Assembly (NCBI GenBank): GCA_045130815.1
Contig: JBGUQG010000143.1
Span: 12,049-76,048, forward strand
Direction of reading: 5' to 3'
Length of the DNA: 64,000 bases
DNA from: Christensenellales bacterium
Lineage (GTDB): Bacteria; Bacillota; Clostridia; Christensenellales; Aristaeellaceae
Within the stretch, counting starts at the first letter, position 1. The number at the start of each line of letters is the position of its first letter. This document shows positions 5,575 through 46,477 of this stretch, one piece after another. Below the pieces are notes generated by a model that ran no database searches, was not told the DNA's origin, and saw only the letters and a program-made list of their open reading frames with translations. A program made the position numbers and the translations under genes.

Positions 5575-6726
5575 TTATCTGTTCCCCAGGAACCCCTCCG
5601 CCACCGCGGCGTGCACGGCGGCGGCGATCACGGGGGCCTGCTCGTCGGGGAGGAAGGCGTTGTTGTGCAGCGGCAGCGGGCAGCCCGCGCCGATGTGGTA
5701 GTACGCGCCGGGGCGCGCCTCCAGGAAATAGCCGAAATCCTCGGTGGTCATGGTGGGCTCATCGATCACGTGCACGCGGCCTTCGCCCAGCAGCGCCCCG
5801 GCGGCCTTTTCCACGAGGGCGGTCATGCCGTCATGGTTGACCACACCGGGATAGCTTTCCCGCAGGTCCGCCTCCGCCGTCGCGCCCCATTGGGCCGTCA
5901 CCTCGTCCACGGCGCGGGCGAAGCCTTGCTTCAGCGCCGCGCGGGCGACGGGGCCCAGGCTGCGCAGGATGCCGCGCAGCTCCGCCCGGTCGGCCAGTAT
6001 GTTCTCCGCCGTGCCGGCATTCAGCGTGCCCACGGTCAGCACGGCCCGCTCGCCGTCCAGCGTGTCCGGCAGGCCGATCAGCCGGCCCGCCAGCGCCGCC
6101 GCCGCGCCCAGGGCGTCCACGCCCTTTTCCCGGGTCGCGCCGTGGGCGCTGACGCCGTGCACCACCACGCGAAAGGTGTCCGAGGCCGCGTAGAACTTGC
6201 CGTAGCGCACGCCCACGTGGCCCAGGGGCAGCTCCGGCGACACGTGGGCCCCGAACACGGCTTCCACGCCGTCCAGGGCCCCGGCGTCGATCATCCGCTT
6301 CGCCCCGCCCCGGCCCTCCTCGTCCGGCTGGAACAGGAACACCACGCTGCCGGGCAGCGATCCCCGCCGGTCAGACAGCAGCTTCGCCGCGCCCAGCGCG
6401 GCGGAGAGGTGCACGTCATGGCCGCAGGCGTGCATCACGCCCGGGCTTTGGGAGGCGAAGTCCGCGCCGGTGGCCTCCGTCAGCGGCAGGGCGTCCATGT
6501 CCGCGCGCAGCGCCACCGTCCTGCCGGGCAGCGCGCCGTCCAGCCGGGCCACCACCGCCGTGTCCAGCAGCCGCCGGGTGGGGATCCCCCAGCCGTTCAG
6601 GCAGGCCTCGATCCGCTTCGCGGTCTCAAACTCATGGTTCCCTAGCTCCGGATGCATGTGAAATTCCCGCCGCAGCGCGATGATCTGCGGCGCGACGGCC
6701 CGGGCCAACGAAAGGTAGTCAGTCAT
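5575..6726 (-). CDS. M20D-family amidohydrolase; candidate N-acetyl-diaminopimelate deacetylase (DapL-like)
   Basis: Peptidase M20/amidohydrolase motifs (HMHPELGNHE, HACGHDVH). It is the last gene downstream of dapA-dapB-dapH on the same strand. Start ATG at 6726 (MTDYLSL...). Confidence 0.8.
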   Translation of the reverse strand: MTDYLSLARAVAPQIIALRREFHMHPELGNHEFETAKRIEACLNGWGIPTRRLLDTAVVARLDGALPGRTVALRADMDALPLTEATGADFASQSPGVMHACGHDVHLSAALGAAKLLSDRRGSLPGSVVFLFQPDEEGRGGAKRMIDAGALDGVEAVFGAHVSPELPLGHVGVRYGKFYAASDTFRVVVHGVSAHGATREKGVDALGAAAALAGRLIGLPDTLDGERAVLTVGTLNAGTAENILADRAELRGILRSLGPVARAALKQGFARAVDEVTAQWGATAEADLRESYPGVVNHDGMTALVEKAAGALLGEGRVHVIDEPTMTTEDFGYFLEARPGAYYHIGAGCPLPLHNNAFLPDEQAPVIAAAVHAAVAEGFLGNR

Positions 6727-6964
6727 GGTGTCACCTGTCCTTGACTTGGATTCAATCAACAAATCACGGCAATCCTGCCGGGGGATCGGGGGCGGCAGCG
6801 CGCCGATCATCAATCGGCCCCGGCGACATGCGCGGCGGGGCCGTAAGGTTTTCACAGAAAACCGACCTCGCTGATTTGACGGCCGGAGATTCTCGGCTGT
6901 TCATTCTTTGGCTTATTGTTTCGGAACAGTCGAAAATCTCAAGTCAAATCCGGAGGGGGCGTAA

Positions 6965-6990
6965 TGGAGGGGGAGCAAGCTCCCCCTCCA
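6965..6990 (-). terminator. GC-rich hairpin immediately after the dapH stop (terminator or processing/stability element)
   Basis: Stem TGGAGGGGGA (6965-6974), 6-nt loop, stem TCCCCCTCCA (6981-6990). There is no clear U-tract, so termination may be partial. A 264-nt spacer follows before the M20 gene. Confidence 0.35.
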
Positions 6991-7683
6991 TCAAAGATTC
7001 CTCAGCGAATCCTGCAGCGCGGTCTTCTGGCTGGTGCCGGCGTCCACCTGCTTGATCACCCGGGCGGGGCAGCCGGCCACCACGCAGCCGGCGGGCACGT
7101 CCTCGATCACCACGGCGCCGGCGGCGACCACCGCGCCCTTGCCCACGCGCACGCCCTCGATCACCACGGCGTTCGCGCCGATCAGCACGTCGTCCTCGAT
7201 CACCACGGGGGTGGCGGAGGCGGGCTCGATCACCCCGGCCAGCACCGCGCCGGCGCCCACGTGGCAGTGCTTGCCCACGATGGCCCGGCCGCCCAGCACC
7301 GCGCCCATGTCGATCATGGTACCCTCGCCGATCACCGCGCCGATGTTGATGACCGCGCCCATCATGATCACGGCGTTGTCGCCGATGGTCACGTTGTCGC
7401 GGATCAGCGCGCCGGGCTCGATGCGGGCGCGGACATTTTTCATGTCCAGCAGCGGCACCGCGCTGTTGCGCCGGTCGTTCTCGATCACGATGTCCTCGAT
7501 GTCATCCCTGTGCTTTTCCAGGATGGGGGCGAGCTTGCCCCACTCCCCGAACACGACCTTGTCCCCCGCGCCGAAGACCTTCGCGTCCTCATAGTCGATG
7601 GGGGCTCTTTCCTTCACGTACAGCTTCACCGGCGTCTTTTTTTCAGCGGTGGCGATATAGTGGATCAGTTCCTGCGCGTTCAT
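6991..7683 (-). CDS. dapH: 2,3,4,5-tetrahydropyridine-2,6-dicarboxylate N-acetyltransferase
   Basis: N-terminus [25 protein letters not shown] followed by hexapeptide-repeat (LbH) region. Size and order match Bacillus DapH (YkuQ). Confidence 0.88.
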
Positions 7684-36014: not shown

Positions 36015-36686
36015 ATGAACAAAAGGCTGTTTGGCCAGGCGGTCTCCAGGTTCGCCGCCGGCGTCGTTCTGCTGGGGCTTTTGCTGTTCCTGCCCGCGGG
36101 CACGCTGCGCTGGCGACAGGGCTGGCTCCTGATGGGCATATTGTTCATCCCGATGTTCGCCGCCGGACTGGTGATGCTGAAGAGGTCGCCGGCGCTGCTC
36201 AGAAAGCGCCTGAACGCCAAAGAGGAGCAGGGCGAGCAGAAGCGGGTGATCCTGCTGAGCGGGCTCATGTTCCTCGCCGCCTTCGCGGTGGCGGGGCTGA
36301 ACTTCCGCTTCCGCTGGATCGTGCTGCCGGAGGCGGTTTCCTGGATCGCCGCCGCCGTATTCCTGCTGGCCTATGCTCTGTACGCGGAGGTATTGCGTGA
36401 AAACGTCTGGCTGTCCCGCACCGTGGAGGTCCAGGAGAACCAACAGGTGGTGGACACCGGCCTGTACGGCGTCGTCCGCCACCCGATGTACATGAGCACG
36501 CTGCTGCTGTTTTTGTCCATGCCCCTGGTGCTGGGTTCCCCCATCTCCTTTGCGATCACCCTGGCCTACGTCCCCATCATCGCCCGCCGCATAAAAAACG
36601 AGGAGGCGGTGCTGGAGGCGGGGCTTAATGGGTACACTGAGTATAAGAAAAAGGTCAGGTGGAAGGTCATACCGTTTGTGTGGTAG
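36015..36686 (+). CDS. Isoprenylcysteine carboxyl methyltransferase (ICMT)/phospholipid methyltransferase-family membrane protein
   Basis: Multi-TM protein with the signature VVDTGLYGVVRHPMYMSTLLLF. Confidence 0.8.
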   Translation: MNKRLFGQAVSRFAAGVVLLGLLLFLPAGTLRWRQGWLLMGILFIPMFAAGLVMLKRSPALLRKRLNAKEEQGEQKRVILLSGLMFLAAFAVAGLNFRFRWIVLPEAVSWIAAAVFLLAYALYAEVLRENVWLSRTVEVQENQQVVDTGLYGVVRHPMYMSTLLLFLSMPLVLGSPISFAITLAYVPIIARRIKNEEAVLEAGLNGYTEYKKKVRWKVIPFVW

Positions 36687-36738
36687 AGGGTCGAAATACA
36701 GCGTCTTGCCCCCCCAAGGCGATCAAGCCGTTCTCCCC

Positions 36739-36799
36739 GCTGCGCCCTGTACCGGAAATGAAAAGTAAGCACGGGGACGGATACGCAAGAACCGTCCCC
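36739..36799. repeat. Left arm of imperfect inverted repeat flanking the radical-SAM gene (contains an 8-bp-stem hairpin)
   Basis: 36773-36799 is GGGGACGGATACGCAAGAACCGTCCCC. The reverse complement of 38017-38043 matches it at 26 of 27 positions. The adjoining 34 nt match at 26 of 34 positions without gaps. Confidence 0.8.
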
Positions 36800-36836
36800 G
36801 ATGGGTTTGGTTCTCTTTCGCTTTGCCGTTCTATCA

Positions 36837-37901
36837 TCATTTGGCTACAGCGTCAAGTATTATTGTTGGTATTCCAAGCATGGTCAATGCCCTGTAAAGA
36901 GCACTTGCCCTATCGCTGTATAGCAGGTCCTGCGGCAACTGATCAATAGCATGAACCAGTACTTCCTGGCGAGGCAGCAGATCCACCTCATAGAACGCAC
37001 CATAGTCCCGGTTCCCAGGCAATTCTGAAATACGTTTGGCTGTTTCCTGAATATCCAGTGTCCGCAGATTTCCGAGATGCTCTGTTTCCACGCCCGTGTT
37101 GCCAACAAAAAGGTCTCCGTTCTGGTGAACCGCCATATATAGCTCATCCTGTGGGCATTTGAATAATGGAACTATATCAAATCCTTGTTGGAGTTGATCC
37201 TTGAGCATACCGATCGTACAGATTTCCTTTGTCAATTCGTCTTCCTGTTGATGCCAACGAGCAAGCCAAGGACGAATCCGGTGAAGGGTATTCAGTGAAC
37301 CACGATAAGGTTCATAATCCGTCATATGGGCATGCGGTGTAAAGTTAGGGACTGCAAAATAGATATATGCGGGCTGTAGCTGTTGCAGCATCCCGTCGAT
37401 TTCTTCGGCATCCTCAGCAAAAAAACGGTTGAACATCAGAGATACTCCAACCTCCGCACCGCAGGATTTCATAAACTCAGCCGCTTCAATTGCAATTCTA
37501 AAAGCGCCTTCTCGCCGGACGATCTCATCGTGATGAGCAGCATTTCCGTGAATGGTTATACCGAAGTCACGGTATCCACAATCAAGATAAGCCTGCATCA
37601 CGCCATGACGGTCTTTCCTGCACATCAGTGCAATACCGCTCGTCATTCCGTGATGATAGTTTTTAATATATCTCGTGGTTTTGGCCTTACGAATAATGGA
37701 TGCAATATTCGGGTGATTCATCGGTTCATTATCCAGTGTAAAGCTGGCTTCAAACGGCAGAAGCTCCGCCAACGCGTCCAGCTTTTCTATGAACAAAAAA
37801 GCGTCCTCCAATTTCATCATGCTTCCAGGTCCACCATTGACATAGCAATGCTTGCAACGCGTGTTGCATCCGGAAACCAATATATCAAAATTGACAGTCA
37901 T
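36837..37901 (-). CDS. Radical SAM protein (no SPASM-type C-terminal Cys cluster), function unknown
   Basis: CX3CX2C motif GCNTRCKHC near the N-terminus. GGAGGT RBS 5-6 nt upstream of the ATG at 37901. GC is noticeably lower than in flanking genes. Confidence 0.8.
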   Translation of the reverse strand: MTVNFDILVSGCNTRCKHCYVNGGPGSMMKLEDAFLFIEKLDALAELLPFEASFTLDNEPMNHPNIASIIRKAKTTRYIKNYHHGMTSGIALMCRKDRHGVMQAYLDCGYRDFGITIHGNAAHHDEIVRREGAFRIAIEAAEFMKSCGAEVGVSLMFNRFFAEDAEEIDGMLQQLQPAYIYFAVPNFTPHAHMTDYEPYRGSLNTLHRIRPWLARWHQQEDELTKEICTIGMLKDQLQQGFDIVPLFKCPQDELYMAVHQNGDLFVGNTGVETEHLGNLRTLDIQETAKRISELPGNRDYGAFYEVDLLPRQEVLVHAIDQLPQDLLYSDRASALYRALTMLGIPTIILDAVAK

Positions 37902-38016
37902 CTGAAACCTCCGCAAATTCCGAGTTATCGAGCCGAAGCTCCTAACCAGTATTCTACCATCTTTCCTTAATCTCCTGCAATCAAAGAGAGGTGAACTTGT
38001 GAACATGGGAGAACAT

Positions 38017-38077
38017 GGGGACGGTTCTTGTGTATCCGTCCCCATGTATACTTTTCCTGTCTGGCACAGGGCACAGC
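38017..38077. repeat. Right arm of imperfect inverted repeat flanking the radical-SAM gene
   Basis: See the left arm. In total 52 of 61 positions are identical in inverted orientation. Confidence 0.8.
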
Positions 38078-38119
38078 GGCACAAATCCCTTGAAAGTGAT
38101 TTCATTCCACGCGCGAGTA

Positions 38120-38154: not shown

Positions 38155-38721
38155 ATGAACATCACGGTATATCTCGGGGCCAGCGAGGGCCGCGATCCGG
38201 CGTTGAAGGCGGCCGTGCGGGCGCTGGGGGCCTGGATCGGCGGGGCGGGACACGCGCTGGTGTACGGCGGGTCGAAGTCCGGGCTGATGGGCGAGCTGGC
38301 CGAAAGCGTGCTGGCGGCGGGCGGCGAGGTGACGGGCGTGGAACCGCGCTTCTTCGTGGAGGCGGGTCTGGTCTACGACGCCATCACCCGGCTGATCGTG
38401 ACCGGGGATATGTCCGAGCGCAAGGCGAAGATGATCGGGCTGGGCGACGCCTTCATCGCCTTTCCCGGCGGCACCGGCACGCTGGAGGAGATCGCCGAGG
38501 TGATGAGCCAGATGTCCCTGGGACACCTGGACGCGCCCTGCGTGCTGTACAACCTGAACGGGTATTACGACCCGCTGAAGGCGCTGCTGGACCGCATGAT
38601 CGAAACGGGGCTTTCGACCCCGGAGAAGCAGGCGGGCATACGCTTCGCGGACAGCCTGGATGAGATCCGGGCGATCATAGAGCAAAGGGAGGCGGCAAGT
38701 CATGGCCACACACATCCTTGA
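38155..38721 (+). CDS. LOG-family (TIGR00730) nucleotide phosphoribohydrolase
   Basis: LVYGGSKSGLMG and PGGTGTLEEI motifs, 188 aa. Confidence 0.88.
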   Translation: MNITVYLGASEGRDPALKAAVRALGAWIGGAGHALVYGGSKSGLMGELAESVLAAGGEVTGVEPRFFVEAGLVYDAITRLIVTGDMSERKAKMIGLGDAFIAFPGGTGTLEEIAEVMSQMSLGHLDAPCVLYNLNGYYDPLKALLDRMIETGLSTPEKQAGIRFADSLDEIRAIIEQREAASHGHTHP

Positions 38722-46363: not shown

Positions 46364-46477
46364 CAGATTGCCACGTCGTCCCCTTTGGGGACTCCTCGCA
46401 ATGACGTATCGTGAAACGGAGCGTATTCTGTCATTGCGAGGAGGCTGAGGCACAGCCGAAGCCGACGTGGCAATCTG
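46364..46477. repeat. Nested palindromic intergenic element (REP/MITE-like, GTCATTGCGAGG family)
   Basis: Outer arms CAGATTGCCACGTCG (46364-46378) and CGACGTGGCAATCTG (46463-46477) are perfectly complementary. Inner arms CCTCGCAATGAC (46394-46405) and GTCATTGCGAGG (46430-46441) are also perfect. It lies between the binding-protein and permease genes of one operon. Confidence 0.75.

What the first reader, a model, noticed from the sequence alone, without database searches (positions are those of the whole stretch)
36739..38077. Low-GC radical-SAM gene carried as a single-gene cassette bounded by about 61-bp imperfect inverted repeats
Seen in the sequence: 36773-36799 (GGGGACGGATACGCAAGAACCGTCCCC, itself an 8-bp-stem hairpin) matches the reverse complement of 38017-38043 at 26 of 27 positions. 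The outward-adjacent 34 nt match at 26 of 34 positions without gaps. Weaker similarity continues about 20 nt further out. The 1.2-kb interior contains only one gene, a radical SAM protein (CX3CX2C, no SPASM Cys cluster). Its G+C is visibly lower than that of the flanking ICMT and LOG genes. There is no transposase, integrase or obvious target-site duplication. Inference: this looks like a non-autonomous, TIR-bounded mobile cassette, or a passenger gene captured between two copies of a hairpin repeat. It would deliver an orphan rSAM enzyme of unknown chemistry with no partner gene or obvious precursor peptide nearby.
Basis: partly seen in the sequence, partly recalled or inferred. Interest (0 to 1): 0.62.

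Follow-up and report, generated by a model that had tools for sequence, protein, structure and literature searches.

The report
Phage gene trapped between hairpin repeats
A foreign radical-SAM gene, taken from a slot for add-on genes in gut phages, sits in this rumen bacterium between two inverted copies of the host's own hairpin repeat. The same spot holds different foreign genes in sister lineages, so the repeats mark a gene-swapping hotspot rather than the ends of a travelling transposon.

Summary
The arms are 36737-36799 and 38017-38079: 26/27 in the hairpin, 26/34 in the next 34 nt. They enclose one radical-SAM gene with 46% G+C; the flanking genes have 62% (ICMT) and 67% (LOG).

The arms are not the ends of a travelling cassette.
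- The 27-nt hairpin is a low-copy REP-like repeat found in several rumen Clostridia.
- In two loci, inverted copies flank a RAYT-like Y1 (HUH) transposase gene. One of these loci comes from the window's own sample.
- The left arm is 100% identical at the same site in a sister lineage, where the arms enclose a different 3.4-kb cargo with 40% G+C.
- A third lineage has hairpin copies around a low-GC MFS gene at this site.

The radical-SAM core (36811-37926) recurs at 93-99% identity in at least 8 other contexts, never with the arms. Donors are an ICE-like element and a variable slot upstream of a phage tape-measure gene. The window also carries 92 nt of that phage spacer (37907-37998).

Best reading: a phage add-on gene (moron) was captured between two resident REP-like units at an insertion hotspot. 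The joining mechanism is inferred, not shown. The enzyme's chemistry remains unknown.

The parts
36015..36686 (+). Host ICMT/PEMT-family methyltransferase gene. It is the left flank and the last gene of a GH13-YunG-ICMT string.
   Evidence: ORF. Pfam PEMT/ICMT. G+C 62%, GC3 0.87. Orthologues of 79-91% identity in many Clostridia contigs.
36737..36805 (-). Left arm, one REP-like unit. Read on the minus strand it is: foot CCCATC (36800-36805), 27-nt hairpin (36773-36799), then a tail GTGCTTACTTTTCATTTCCGGTACAGGGCGCAGCGG (36737-36772) that points outward to ICMT.
   Evidence: It is 100% identical over 36737-36805 to L015 1305-1373 at the same site, whereas ICMT is only 89% identical.
36806..36810 (.). 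Left junction: 5 nt (TTTGG) found neither in the resident arm nor in the donor sequence.
   Evidence: Similarity to L015 ends at about 36805-36808. Similarity to every other rSAM context starts at 36811.
36811..37926 (-). Radical-SAM core segment shared with other genomic contexts. It comprises about 22 nt of 5' leader with the ribosome-binding site, the ORF, and 26 nt after the stop.
   Evidence: 99.1% to L003, 93% to L034 and 100% to L001/L002. The same end points appear in runs X25, X27-X29, X45, X46, X48 and X57.
36837..37901 (-). Radical-SAM protein gene, 354 aa (P0001). It has C12xxxC16xxC19 and no auxiliary Cys cluster.
   Evidence: 51 homologues, mean column identity 58%, invariant C12/C16/C19 and many His. 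AF2 model with pLDDT 94. Foldseek best hits are SkfB, anSME, SuiB, MoaA and viperin at TM about 0.5.
37907..37998 (.). Phage-derived spacer. In IMG/VR phages this stretch lies between a variable minus-strand accessory gene and the tape-measure gene. In the window it supplies the rSAM leader and a likely promoter on the minus strand, and it stops 3 nt before the tape-measure ATG would start.
   Evidence: 91-92% identity over 88-93 nt to L029-L033. The downstream ORF there is a TP901-type tape measure protein. In many metagenomes contigs run on from 37998 into TTATGGCTGAAACC..., at 3-15 times the depth of the rSAM gene.
37999..38016 (.). Right junction: 18 nt of stuttered filler (GTGAACATGGGAGAACAT) that repeats bits of both neighbours (GTGAAC, GAACATGGG).
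   Evidence: Read directly from the sequence. In conspecific strains of runs X5 and X7, three deletions (4, 6 and 6 nt, 16 nt in all) fall at 37989-38005, within and just left of this filler (table 4).
38017..38079 (+). Right arm, a second REP-like unit: 27-nt hairpin (38017-38043), then a tail ATGTATACTTTTCCTGTCTGGCACAGGGCACAGCGG that points outward to LOG.
   Evidence: The hairpin is identical to copies in L011, L012, L013, L014 and L023.
38155..38721 (+). Host LOG/Lysine_decarbox-family gene, the right flank. It is absent from the sister lineage L015.
   Evidence: G+C 67%. L015 goes from its right arm straight to the aldose epimerase gene.

Best explanation
The two arms are resident copies of a REP-like repeat of rumen Clostridia. 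Each unit has a 27-nt hairpin, GGGGACGG-TTCTTGTGTAT-CCGTCCCC. The stem is extended by a covarying foot/tail pair (ACAY...RTGT). A tail of 35-50 nt follows.

Elsewhere this repeat flanks a RAYT-like Y1 (HUH) transposase gene. In the window the two units lie foot to foot with their tails pointing outward, downstream of the ICMT gene. The DNA between them is a swappable slot:
- this species holds a 1.19-kb fragment of phage DNA;
- a sister lineage holds a different 3.4-kb low-GC gene set between the same kind of arms;
- a third lineage holds a low-GC MFS gene among hairpin copies.

The window's cargo is a phage 'moron' (an add-on gene carried by a phage). It is a lone radical-SAM gene that in ruminant-gut phages occupies a variable slot just upstream of the tape-measure gene, and it also rides in an ICE-like element. 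The fragment was cut 26 nt past the rSAM stop and 3 nt before the tape-measure start codon. It brought the phage spacer that serves as the gene's leader and probably its promoter.

Shown: the repeat family and its link to the RAYT-like gene, the residency of the arms, the foreign phage/ICE origin of the cargo, and the junctions to within 5 nt (left) and 18 nt (right).

Inferred: joining happened by illegitimate, microhomology- or slippage-type recombination at the hairpin feet. It was promoted either by RAYT nicking or by stalling of replication at the palindrome. The hairpins now also shield the neighbouring genes.

The enzyme's chemistry is unknown. From the company it keeps in the phage slot (MazG-like, GNAT and AAC(6')-like genes), I guess it modifies a nucleotide or another small molecule.
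For: Repeat family
- The hairpin is found in 4 MAGs of different families with flanking G+C of 41-57%.
- It occurs 2 and 5 times in sister-lineage contigs L015 and L016.
- It lies in 10-12 contigs of the window's sample at host-like depth.

RAYT link
- Inverted copies flank a 271-272-aa Y1_Tnp protein in L013 and L023: Pfam E = 3.5e-11, NCBIfam REP_Tyr_transpos 56 bits over the whole profile, invariant HxH and RYIHRNP motifs.
- L023 comes from the same sample as the window's proteins. It has a 65-67% G+C neighbour and a depth that tracks the host in 4 runs.

Residency and the slot
- The left arm plus foot is 100% identical in L015 at the same site, with a different cargo of 40% G+C.
- L016 has an MFS gene of 43-47% G+C among hairpins at the same site.

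The cargo is foreign and travels without the arms
-.

Phage origin
-.
- The loose end at 36813 in X5/X8 equals the phage's left constant region.
- The rSAM-to-phage-spacer junction exists in run X27, which lacks the host.

Junction
- The junction shows stutter and strain-to-strain length variation.
Against: - No empty site (two units foot to foot with nothing between) was found.
- All conspecific strains sampled keep the cassette.
- RAYT activity on these hairpins is untested.
- The right arms of the window and L015 are only 78% alike, and their outer flanks differ (LOG present or absent). Only the left arm is demonstrably orthologous.
- In L016 the hairpins around the cargo are in direct, not inverted, orientation.
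- Copy number is low (about 10 or fewer), unlike classical REPs.
- The scan of JGI metagenome contigs found only two further true copies.
Confidence: 0.6

Rival explanations
1. The hairpin units and the cargo are unrelated in mechanism. The ICMT 3' region is simply a permissive intergenic hotspot. Cargo is exchanged among relatives by ordinary homologous recombination in the flanking genes. REP-like units accumulated there independently, or were kept because they act as terminators or insulators.
For: - Three lineages have three different arrangements of hairpins and cargo.
- In L016 the hairpins are direct repeats.
- The left hairpin in L015 is followed by a good U-run and could terminate the ICMT string.
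- Solo hairpins sit in ordinary intergenic regions in L011, L012 and L014.
Against: - The only two copies in 64 kb lie within 5 nt and 18 nt of the cargo's ends.
- Foreign low-GC DNA abuts hairpins in all three lineages.
- The hairpins are poor intrinsic terminators: the loop is 11 nt, the U-run starts 8-9 nt after the stem, and the scan does not flag them.
- The right copy sits in a divergent promoter region, where no transcript needs ending.
Confidence: 0.22
2. This is a non-autonomous transposon: arms plus rSAM move as one unit, mobilised in trans by the RAYT-like transposase whose gene carries the same hairpins.
For: - The 63-nt inverted ends are real.
- The same hairpin flanks a Y1 transposase gene.
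- Earlier notes of this scan describe RAYT-linked cassettes with exchangeable passengers in gut Clostridia.
Against: - Arms are absent from every other copy of the gene.
- The left arm is orthologous in L015, which has a different cargo.
- The hairpin loops are arranged A...T around the cargo but T...A around the transposase gene, a difference that strand choice cannot remove.
- There is no target-site duplication.
- The cargo itself is a ragged phage fragment.
Confidence: 0.06
3. This is a decayed prophage. A whole phage once lay between ICMT and LOG. Deletions removed everything but the accessory gene, and REP-like units later settled at the scars.
For: - The cargo is phage sequence that includes non-coding phage spacer.
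- Part of L015's cargo matches PHROG families of unknown function.
Against: - Only 1.19 kb remains, and it ends within about 20-75 nt of the accessory-gene slot's own boundaries on both sides.
- The left arm predates the split from L015, whose cargo is unrelated.
- No integrase, att site or other phage gene is in the neighbourhood.
Confidence: 0.07

Closest known systems
REP / RAYT systems (REPtrons; E. coli TnpA-REP; REPINs of Pseudomonas). Sources: Nunvar 2010 PMC2817692, Bertels & Rainey 2011 PMC3116915, Di Nocera 2013 PMC3733652, Bertels 2017 PMC5581495.
   Same: - A short extragenic palindrome is dispersed in the genome.
- A single Y1/HUH transposase gene is flanked by inverted copies of it.
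- Units occur singly, in direct clusters and in inverted pairs.
[quoted passage not shown]
- Bertels 2017 reports Group 1 RAYTs in Clostridia with low-copy flanking words (about 12).
   Different: - There is no terminal GTAG or CGTC tag.
- The loop is 11 nt.
- Copy number is about 10 or fewer, not hundreds.
- The identical 27-mer sits in genomes of 41-65% G+C from different families, so the repeat is horizontally mobile rather than strictly vertical.
- The transposase has a C-terminal HTH and scores below the NCBIfam RAYT cut-off.
- Kilobase-sized foreign genes lie between the paired units.
REPs as targets for insertion sequences (Tobes & Pareja 2006, PMC1525189)
   Same: Foreign DNA lands at REP palindromes, and REP-rich intergenic regions are hotspots.
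   Different: The insert here is not an IS and has no transposase. It lies between two intact units rather than inside one. Different cargos occupy the same place in sister lineages.
Phage morons (accessory genes with their own promoter between conserved phage genes). The concept is cited from my own knowledge.
   Same: In L029-L033 a 334-544-nt slot between conserved tail genes and the tape-measure gene holds alternative minus-strand genes. The rSAM gene occupies that slot in ruminant metagenomes.
   Different: The window's copy is chromosomal and detached from any phage. The slot is flanked by a short inverted motif (GGAATTTG / CAAATTCC), and the rSAM unit carries this motif into non-phage contexts.
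pdif modules of Acinetobacter plasmids and integron cassettes (cited from my own knowledge)
   Same: Single accessory genes are bracketed by short palindromic sites, and cargo is exchangeable at a fixed place.
   Different: The hairpin has no XerC/D-type site architecture. There is no attC or IntI. The sites are inverted and are linked to an HUH enzyme, not a tyrosine recombinase.
SPASM/twitch-type radical-SAM enzymes (SkfB, anSME, SuiB, MoaA) and viperin
   Same: N-terminal CX3CX2C, a partial TIM-barrel core and a C-terminal beta-rich extension. Foldseek gives E = 1e-10 to 1e-6 and TM about 0.5.
   Different: There are no auxiliary-cluster cysteines. No curated family comes near its cut-off. 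The set of invariant His/Asp residues is distinctive (H63, H83, H84, H118, H124, D125, H190). The gene stands alone.

Membership tests
REP/RAYT system | A short palindromic repeat dispersed in extragenic DNA in several copies | tested here: met
   Copies occur in L011-L016, L023, L025 and L026, plus the two in the window. The window's sample has 10-12 contigs carrying it. Copy number is low.
REP/RAYT system | A Y1 (HUH) transposase gene flanked by inverted copies of the same repeat | tested here: met
   In L013 the hairpins are at 6201-6227 and 7125-7151 around the gene at 6238-7056. In L023 they are at 1-26 and 925-951 around the gene at 98-913. Pfam Y1_Tnp scores 43.7 bits against a cut-off of 23. 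HxH and Y138 are invariant in 27 homologues.
REP/RAYT system | The protein reaches the curated RAYT model (NCBIfam NF047646) | tested here: not met
   56 bits against a cut-off of 80, although positions 4-144 of the 146-position profile are matched. JGI names an 84% relative 'REP element-mobilizing transposase RayT'. No PDB relative was found by sequence.
REP/RAYT system | The transposase gene and the repeats lie in the same genome as the window | tested here: inconclusive
   L023 is from SRR25030104, the sample that also yields the window's exact proteins. Its neighbour has 65-67% G+C and its depth tracks the host in 4 runs. No RAYT lies in the 64-kb window.
REP/RAYT system | A GTAG or CGTC tag at one end, and high copy number (more than 100) | tested here: not met
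   No terminal GTAG is present, and CGTC lies inside the stem only. The copy estimate is about 10 or fewer.
MITE / TIR-bounded non-autonomous transposon | Terminal inverted repeats | tested here: met
   63 nt, 86% complementary.
MITE / TIR-bounded non-autonomous transposon | Target-site duplication | tested here: not met
   The outer flanks GCCGTTCTCC and CACAAATCCC are unrelated.
MITE / TIR-bounded non-autonomous transposon | The same bounded unit occurs at several unrelated sites | tested here: not met
   The gene recurs in at least 8 contexts without the arms. Arms with this cargo are seen only in this species.
Phage moron / accessory-gene slot | Alternative unrelated genes occupy one position between conserved phage genes | tested here: met
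   In L029-L033 the conserved flanks are 91-99% identical and the variable insert of 334-544 nt holds three different genes. The rSAM gene is joined to both constant flanks in metagenome contigs.
Radical SAM superfamily | CX3CX2C motif and the PF04055 core | tested here: met
   C12/C16/C19 are invariant. PF04055 scores 36.3 bits against a cut-off of 29.5. The AF2 core matches rSAM structures.
SPASM/twitch subfamily | C-terminal cysteines for auxiliary Fe-S clusters | tested here: not met
   No conserved Cys lies beyond residue 19 in 51 homologues. NCBIfam hits cover the N-terminal half only and fall far below their cut-offs.
Prokaryotic viperin (pVip) | Match to the pVip model over its full length | tested here: not met
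   PADLOC pVip gives E = 0.011 over residues 3-74 only. Viperin structures are not the best fold matches.
Integron cassette | An attC site after the gene, and an IntI integrase or an array of direct cassettes | tested here: not met
   The sites are inverted copies of one hairpin. No integrase is nearby and there is no array. Rfam finds nothing.

The most novel reading that the evidence does not exclude
REP-like hairpin pairs together with their RAYT-type HUH enzyme form a chromosomal gene-capture device. The enzyme nicks single-stranded DNA at the hairpin feet and joins in foreign single-stranded DNA, such as phage or conjugative DNA. A foot-to-foot pair thereby becomes a reusable slot whose content is swapped between lineages. 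This would be an HUH-based functional analogue of an integron. The identical hairpin in unrelated rumen Clostridia would then mean that the whole system spreads horizontally.
Probability: 0.15. Interest if true: 0.85.

Novelty: new variant of a known kind. Interest (0 to 1): 0.55.

Why it matters
REP/RAYT systems are known mainly from Proteobacteria. There they are treated as vertically inherited, high-copy elements that do not carry genes. This locus differs in three ways:
- a low-copy REP-like family has an identical core in distantly related rumen Clostridia;
- it is linked to a RAYT-like gene;
- its paired units bracket a site where three sister lineages hold three different foreign cargos.

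This makes one question directly testable: do HUH nucleases or their hairpins promote gene capture?

The work also traces a widespread, uncharacterised radical-SAM family (295 proteins with E <= 0.001 in the search, present in RNA-labelled runs) to a phage accessory-gene slot. That slot alternately carries MazG-like, GNAT and AAC(6')-like genes, which marks the enzyme as a candidate phage-host or small-molecule factor.

Tried and rejected
I could therefore not count arm copies or find the RAYT gene in the window's own genome.
- Exact-protein look-ups of ICMT and LOG returned only contigs of the same study. Those contigs break at the arms, so they show no empty site.
- Laying contigs of four other ruminant studies on the locus gave no joint that skips the cassette.
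- The hairpin scan of JGI metagenome contigs gave only 2 true copies, and the scan of IMG/VR gave none.
- The rSAM protein gave nothing useful against plasmids, phage GenBank records, PDB sequences, PHROGs or PADLOC.
- Foldseek against PDB and viral models gave only generic radical-SAM matches.
- The 101-nt phage-spacer query found nothing in the plasmid or phage record collections. An exact-pattern scan of IMG/VR did find it.
- Reading the arms as intrinsic terminators is rejected: they are not flagged, the loop is 11 nt, and the U-run is displaced.
- Rfam finds nothing.
- A dif/Xer-site reading is rejected on architecture.
- The 114-bp palindrome at 46364-46477, noted by another reader, is unrelated in sequence.
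- The RAYT profile found no PDB relative by sequence.
Full report
**Observation**

The claimed inverted repeat is real and exactly as described.
- The repeat finder reports arms 36737-36799 and 38017-38079, 63 nt, 86% complementary.
- My recount gives 26/27 in the hairpin, 26/34 in the adjoining 34 nt and 10/20 further out.
- The 27-mer occurs nowhere else in the 64-kb window, and it occurred in none of 100 shuffles.
- As single-stranded DNA each arm forms a stem of 9 base pairs (left arm) or 12 base pairs (right arm) with an 11-nt loop.
- The interior holds one gene on the minus strand, 36837-37901, 354 aa, with C12xxxC16xxC19. It matches Pfam Radical_SAM only.
- The interior G+C is 46%. ICMT has 62% and LOG 67%. 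GC3 is 0.46 against 0.87.

**What the arms are**

A scan of one genome per prokaryote species for the hairpin core found it in four rumen MAGs: two Lachnospiraceae, one Candidatus Limivicinus and one unclassified Clostridiales. Flanking G+C in those loci ranges from 41% to 57%. Several carry more than one copy.

In L013 two inverted copies flank a 272-aa gene.
- The protein matches Pfam Y1_Tnp, the IS200-like HUH transposases (E = 3.5e-11).
- It also matches the NCBIfam REP-associated tyrosine transposase model over its whole length. The score is below the curated cut-off, 56 against 80 bits.
- An alignment of 27 homologues keeps the HxH motif and the Tyr of RYIHRNP invariant.

An 83%-identical homologue (P0244) lies on a 2.9-kb contig, L023, from SRR25030104. 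This is the sample that also yields the window's exact ICMT, LOG and rSAM proteins. It is again flanked by the hairpins and sits next to a gene of 65-67% G+C. The depth of that contig tracks the host's depth in four runs. The window's sample has 10-12 contigs that carry the hairpin, all at host-like depth.

I conclude that this is a low-copy REP-like family with a RAYT-like partner. The partner is very probably in this genome.

**Anatomy of the repeat unit**

An alignment of 19 copies shows the parts of the unit:
- an invariant 27-nt hairpin;
- a foot and tail that extend the stem with compensatory changes (ACAT/ATGT, ACAC/GTGT);
- a GTATAC-like motif;
- in the host lineage, a further tail of 35-50 nt shared by the window's two arms and by copies in L015 and L016.

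The two 63-nt arms are therefore two diverged members of one family.

Orientation matters. Around the transposase gene the loops read T-form then A-form, with tails pointing inward. Around the rSAM gene they read A-form then T-form, with tails pointing outward. Reverse-complementing cannot convert one arrangement into the other. The cassette is therefore not a transposase-deleted copy of the RAYT unit.

**The arms are resident and the interior is swappable**

- A sister lineage (L015, ICMT 89% identical) has the left arm plus foot at the same place, 100% identical over 69 nt. Similarity to the window ends at about 36805-36808.
- L015 also has a right arm in the same orientation. Between its arms lie 3.4 kb of 40% G+C DNA with an LRR_5 protein, a DUF6941 protein and two unknown proteins. 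LOG is absent.
- A third lineage (L016, ICMT 88%) has five hairpin copies downstream of ICMT, around an MFS gene of 43-47% G+C.
- More distant relatives (79%) have no hairpins and different neighbours.
- Conspecific strains in four other sheep and goat studies all keep the arms and the rSAM gene, and no read skips the cassette.

**The cargo travels without the arms and comes from phage**

The rSAM core is 99.1% identical to L003, 93% to L034 and 98% between L034 and L024. In runs without the host (X25, X27-X29) and in RNA-labelled runs (X45, X46, X48, X57), similarity to the window always ends at 36811 and at about 37923. The arms are never covered.

L034 is an ICE-like IMG/VR contig. It carries ArdA, a ParB-like protein, a GNAT, the rSAM gene, HTH regulators and a serine recombinase.

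Window 37907-37998 is 91-92% identical to the spacer upstream of a TP901-type tape-measure gene in five IMG/VR phages. In those phages a slot of 334-544 nt lies between conserved flanks. It holds one of three alternative genes, all on the minus strand:
- a MazG-like gene;
- a GNAT gene;
- an AAC(6')-Ie-like GNAT gene, whose score is below that family's cut-off.

In ruminant metagenomes the rSAM gene is joined to both constant flanks of that slot. The loose end at 36813 equals the phage's left flank. The contigs at 37834-37957 in X27 and the continuation into the tape-measure start at 37998 give the right flank.

In its other contexts the rSAM unit is bounded by a short inverted motif, TCGGAATTTG ... 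CAAATTCC. The same pair flanks the phage slot. The window's copy lacks the 3' motif and carries 75 extra nt of phage spacer. It is therefore a ragged phage fragment, not a cleanly moved cassette.

**Junctions**

- Left: 5 nt (36806-36810) belong to neither partner.
- Right: 18 nt (37999-38016) are a stutter of neighbouring words (GTGAAC, GAACATGGG). In conspecific strains, three deletions totalling 16 nt fall at 37989-38005, overlapping this filler.
- Similar partial duplications of foot plus half-stem occur at other copies, in L013 and in loose ends of X4/X5.

This pattern fits slippage or template switching at a hairpin. It is the basis for my inferred mechanism, and it is not proof.

**The enzyme**

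The search returned 295 homologues with E <= 0.001. The 120 best listed share 53-99% identity and none carries an informative name. Fifty-one of them align with 58% mean column identity. They have invariant Cys only in the CX3CX2C motif, plus a set of invariant His, Asp and Glu residues.

The AF2 model is confident, with pLDDT 94. It matches only the general SPASM/twitch-like and viperin-like radical-SAM folds, at TM about 0.5. NCBIfam, PADLOC and PHROGs give nothing near a cut-off. Neighbours differ in every context, although a GNAT gene lies directly upstream in two of them.

The gene is present in RNA-labelled runs. DNA carry-over in those runs cannot be excluded.

Its chemistry is unknown. 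Modification of a nucleotide or other small molecule, serving phage-host conflict or detoxification, is a guess based on what else occupies the slot.

**Comparison with what is known**

The repeat and its enzyme work like a REP/RAYT system. They meet the two structural criteria: a dispersed palindrome, and a Y1 gene flanked by inverted copies. They fail three others: the GTAG/CGTC tag, the high copy number and the curated protein cut-off.
- Bertels et al. 2017 (PMC5581495) report Group 1 RAYTs in Clostridia with low-copy flanking words.
- Di Nocera et al. 2013 (PMC3733652) mention DNA inserted between REP dimer partners, and RAYT genes flanked by long TIRs.
- Tobes & Pareja 2006 (PMC1525189) show REPs as targets for insertion sequences.

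I did not find a description of a pair of such units bracketing a site where sister lineages hold different kilobase-sized foreign cargos, one of them a phage accessory gene.

Earlier notes of this scan describe RAYT-linked cargo cassettes and swappable palindromic repeats in gut Clostridia. They are unverified leads on the same theme. This locus differs in that the cargo lies on the opposite side of the hairpins from the transposase gene.

**Verdict**

Noticed in passing
L029-L033 (IMG/VR phages); window 37907-37998 is the matching stretch: A slot of 334-544 nt between conserved tail genes and a TP901-type tape-measure gene holds one of three alternative minus-strand genes: MazG-like (108 aa), GNAT (154 aa), or an AAC(6')-Ie-like acetyltransferase (158 aa, 213 bits, below the family cut-off of 340). 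The slot is flanked by the inverted motif CTGGAATTT... / ...CACAAATTCCGA. The rSAM unit carries this motif pair into non-phage contexts.
   Followed up: partly
L013 3641-6227; L015 1514-2692; L023 1058-2839: BspA-type LRR_5 surface-protein genes lie next to the hairpin repeats three times. In L013 a foot-to-foot pair encloses a 748-aa LRR_5 gene right beside the RAYT unit. In L023 a 593-aa LRR_5 gene follows the RAYT unit. In L015 one is part of the cargo.
   Followed up: no
L013 6160-6200; window 37988-38016; loose ends at 38017 in runs X4/X5/X7: Just 5' of several hairpin copies, the foot plus the first half of the stem is partly duplicated in tandem (for example cactGGGGACGGTTacactggttacactGGGGACGG). 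This is a recurring stutter at the hairpin foot.
   Followed up: partly
L016 5773-5900, 8110-8230, 8334-8450: There is a second, longer unit type. The hairpin is followed by about 75 nt that end in another half-hairpin (AACCGTCCCC). Three copies are present, so the family has composite forms.
   Followed up: no
L034 (IMG/VR contig, 33.6 kb): This contig is filed as viral but looks like an integrative conjugative or mobilisable element. It has ArdA, a ParB-like protein, a fragment of an AlwI-type restriction enzyme, GNAT plus rSAM, an HTH-receiver protein and a large serine recombinase.
   Followed up: partly
window 36646-36805 versus L015: The last 40 nt of ICMT, the spacer and the left arm are 97-100% identical between the two lineages, whereas the rest of ICMT is about 89% identical. 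This hints at recent recombination or conversion reaching exactly to the hairpin foot.
   Followed up: no
window 46364-46477: The 114-bp nested palindrome flagged by another first-stage note is unrelated in sequence to the arms studied here.
   Followed up: partly
window 38155-38721 versus L015 4822-5021: The LOG gene, which has native-like G+C, is present in the window. In the sister lineage about 200 nt of unrelated sequence takes its place. The variable region may therefore extend beyond the right arm.
   Followed up: no
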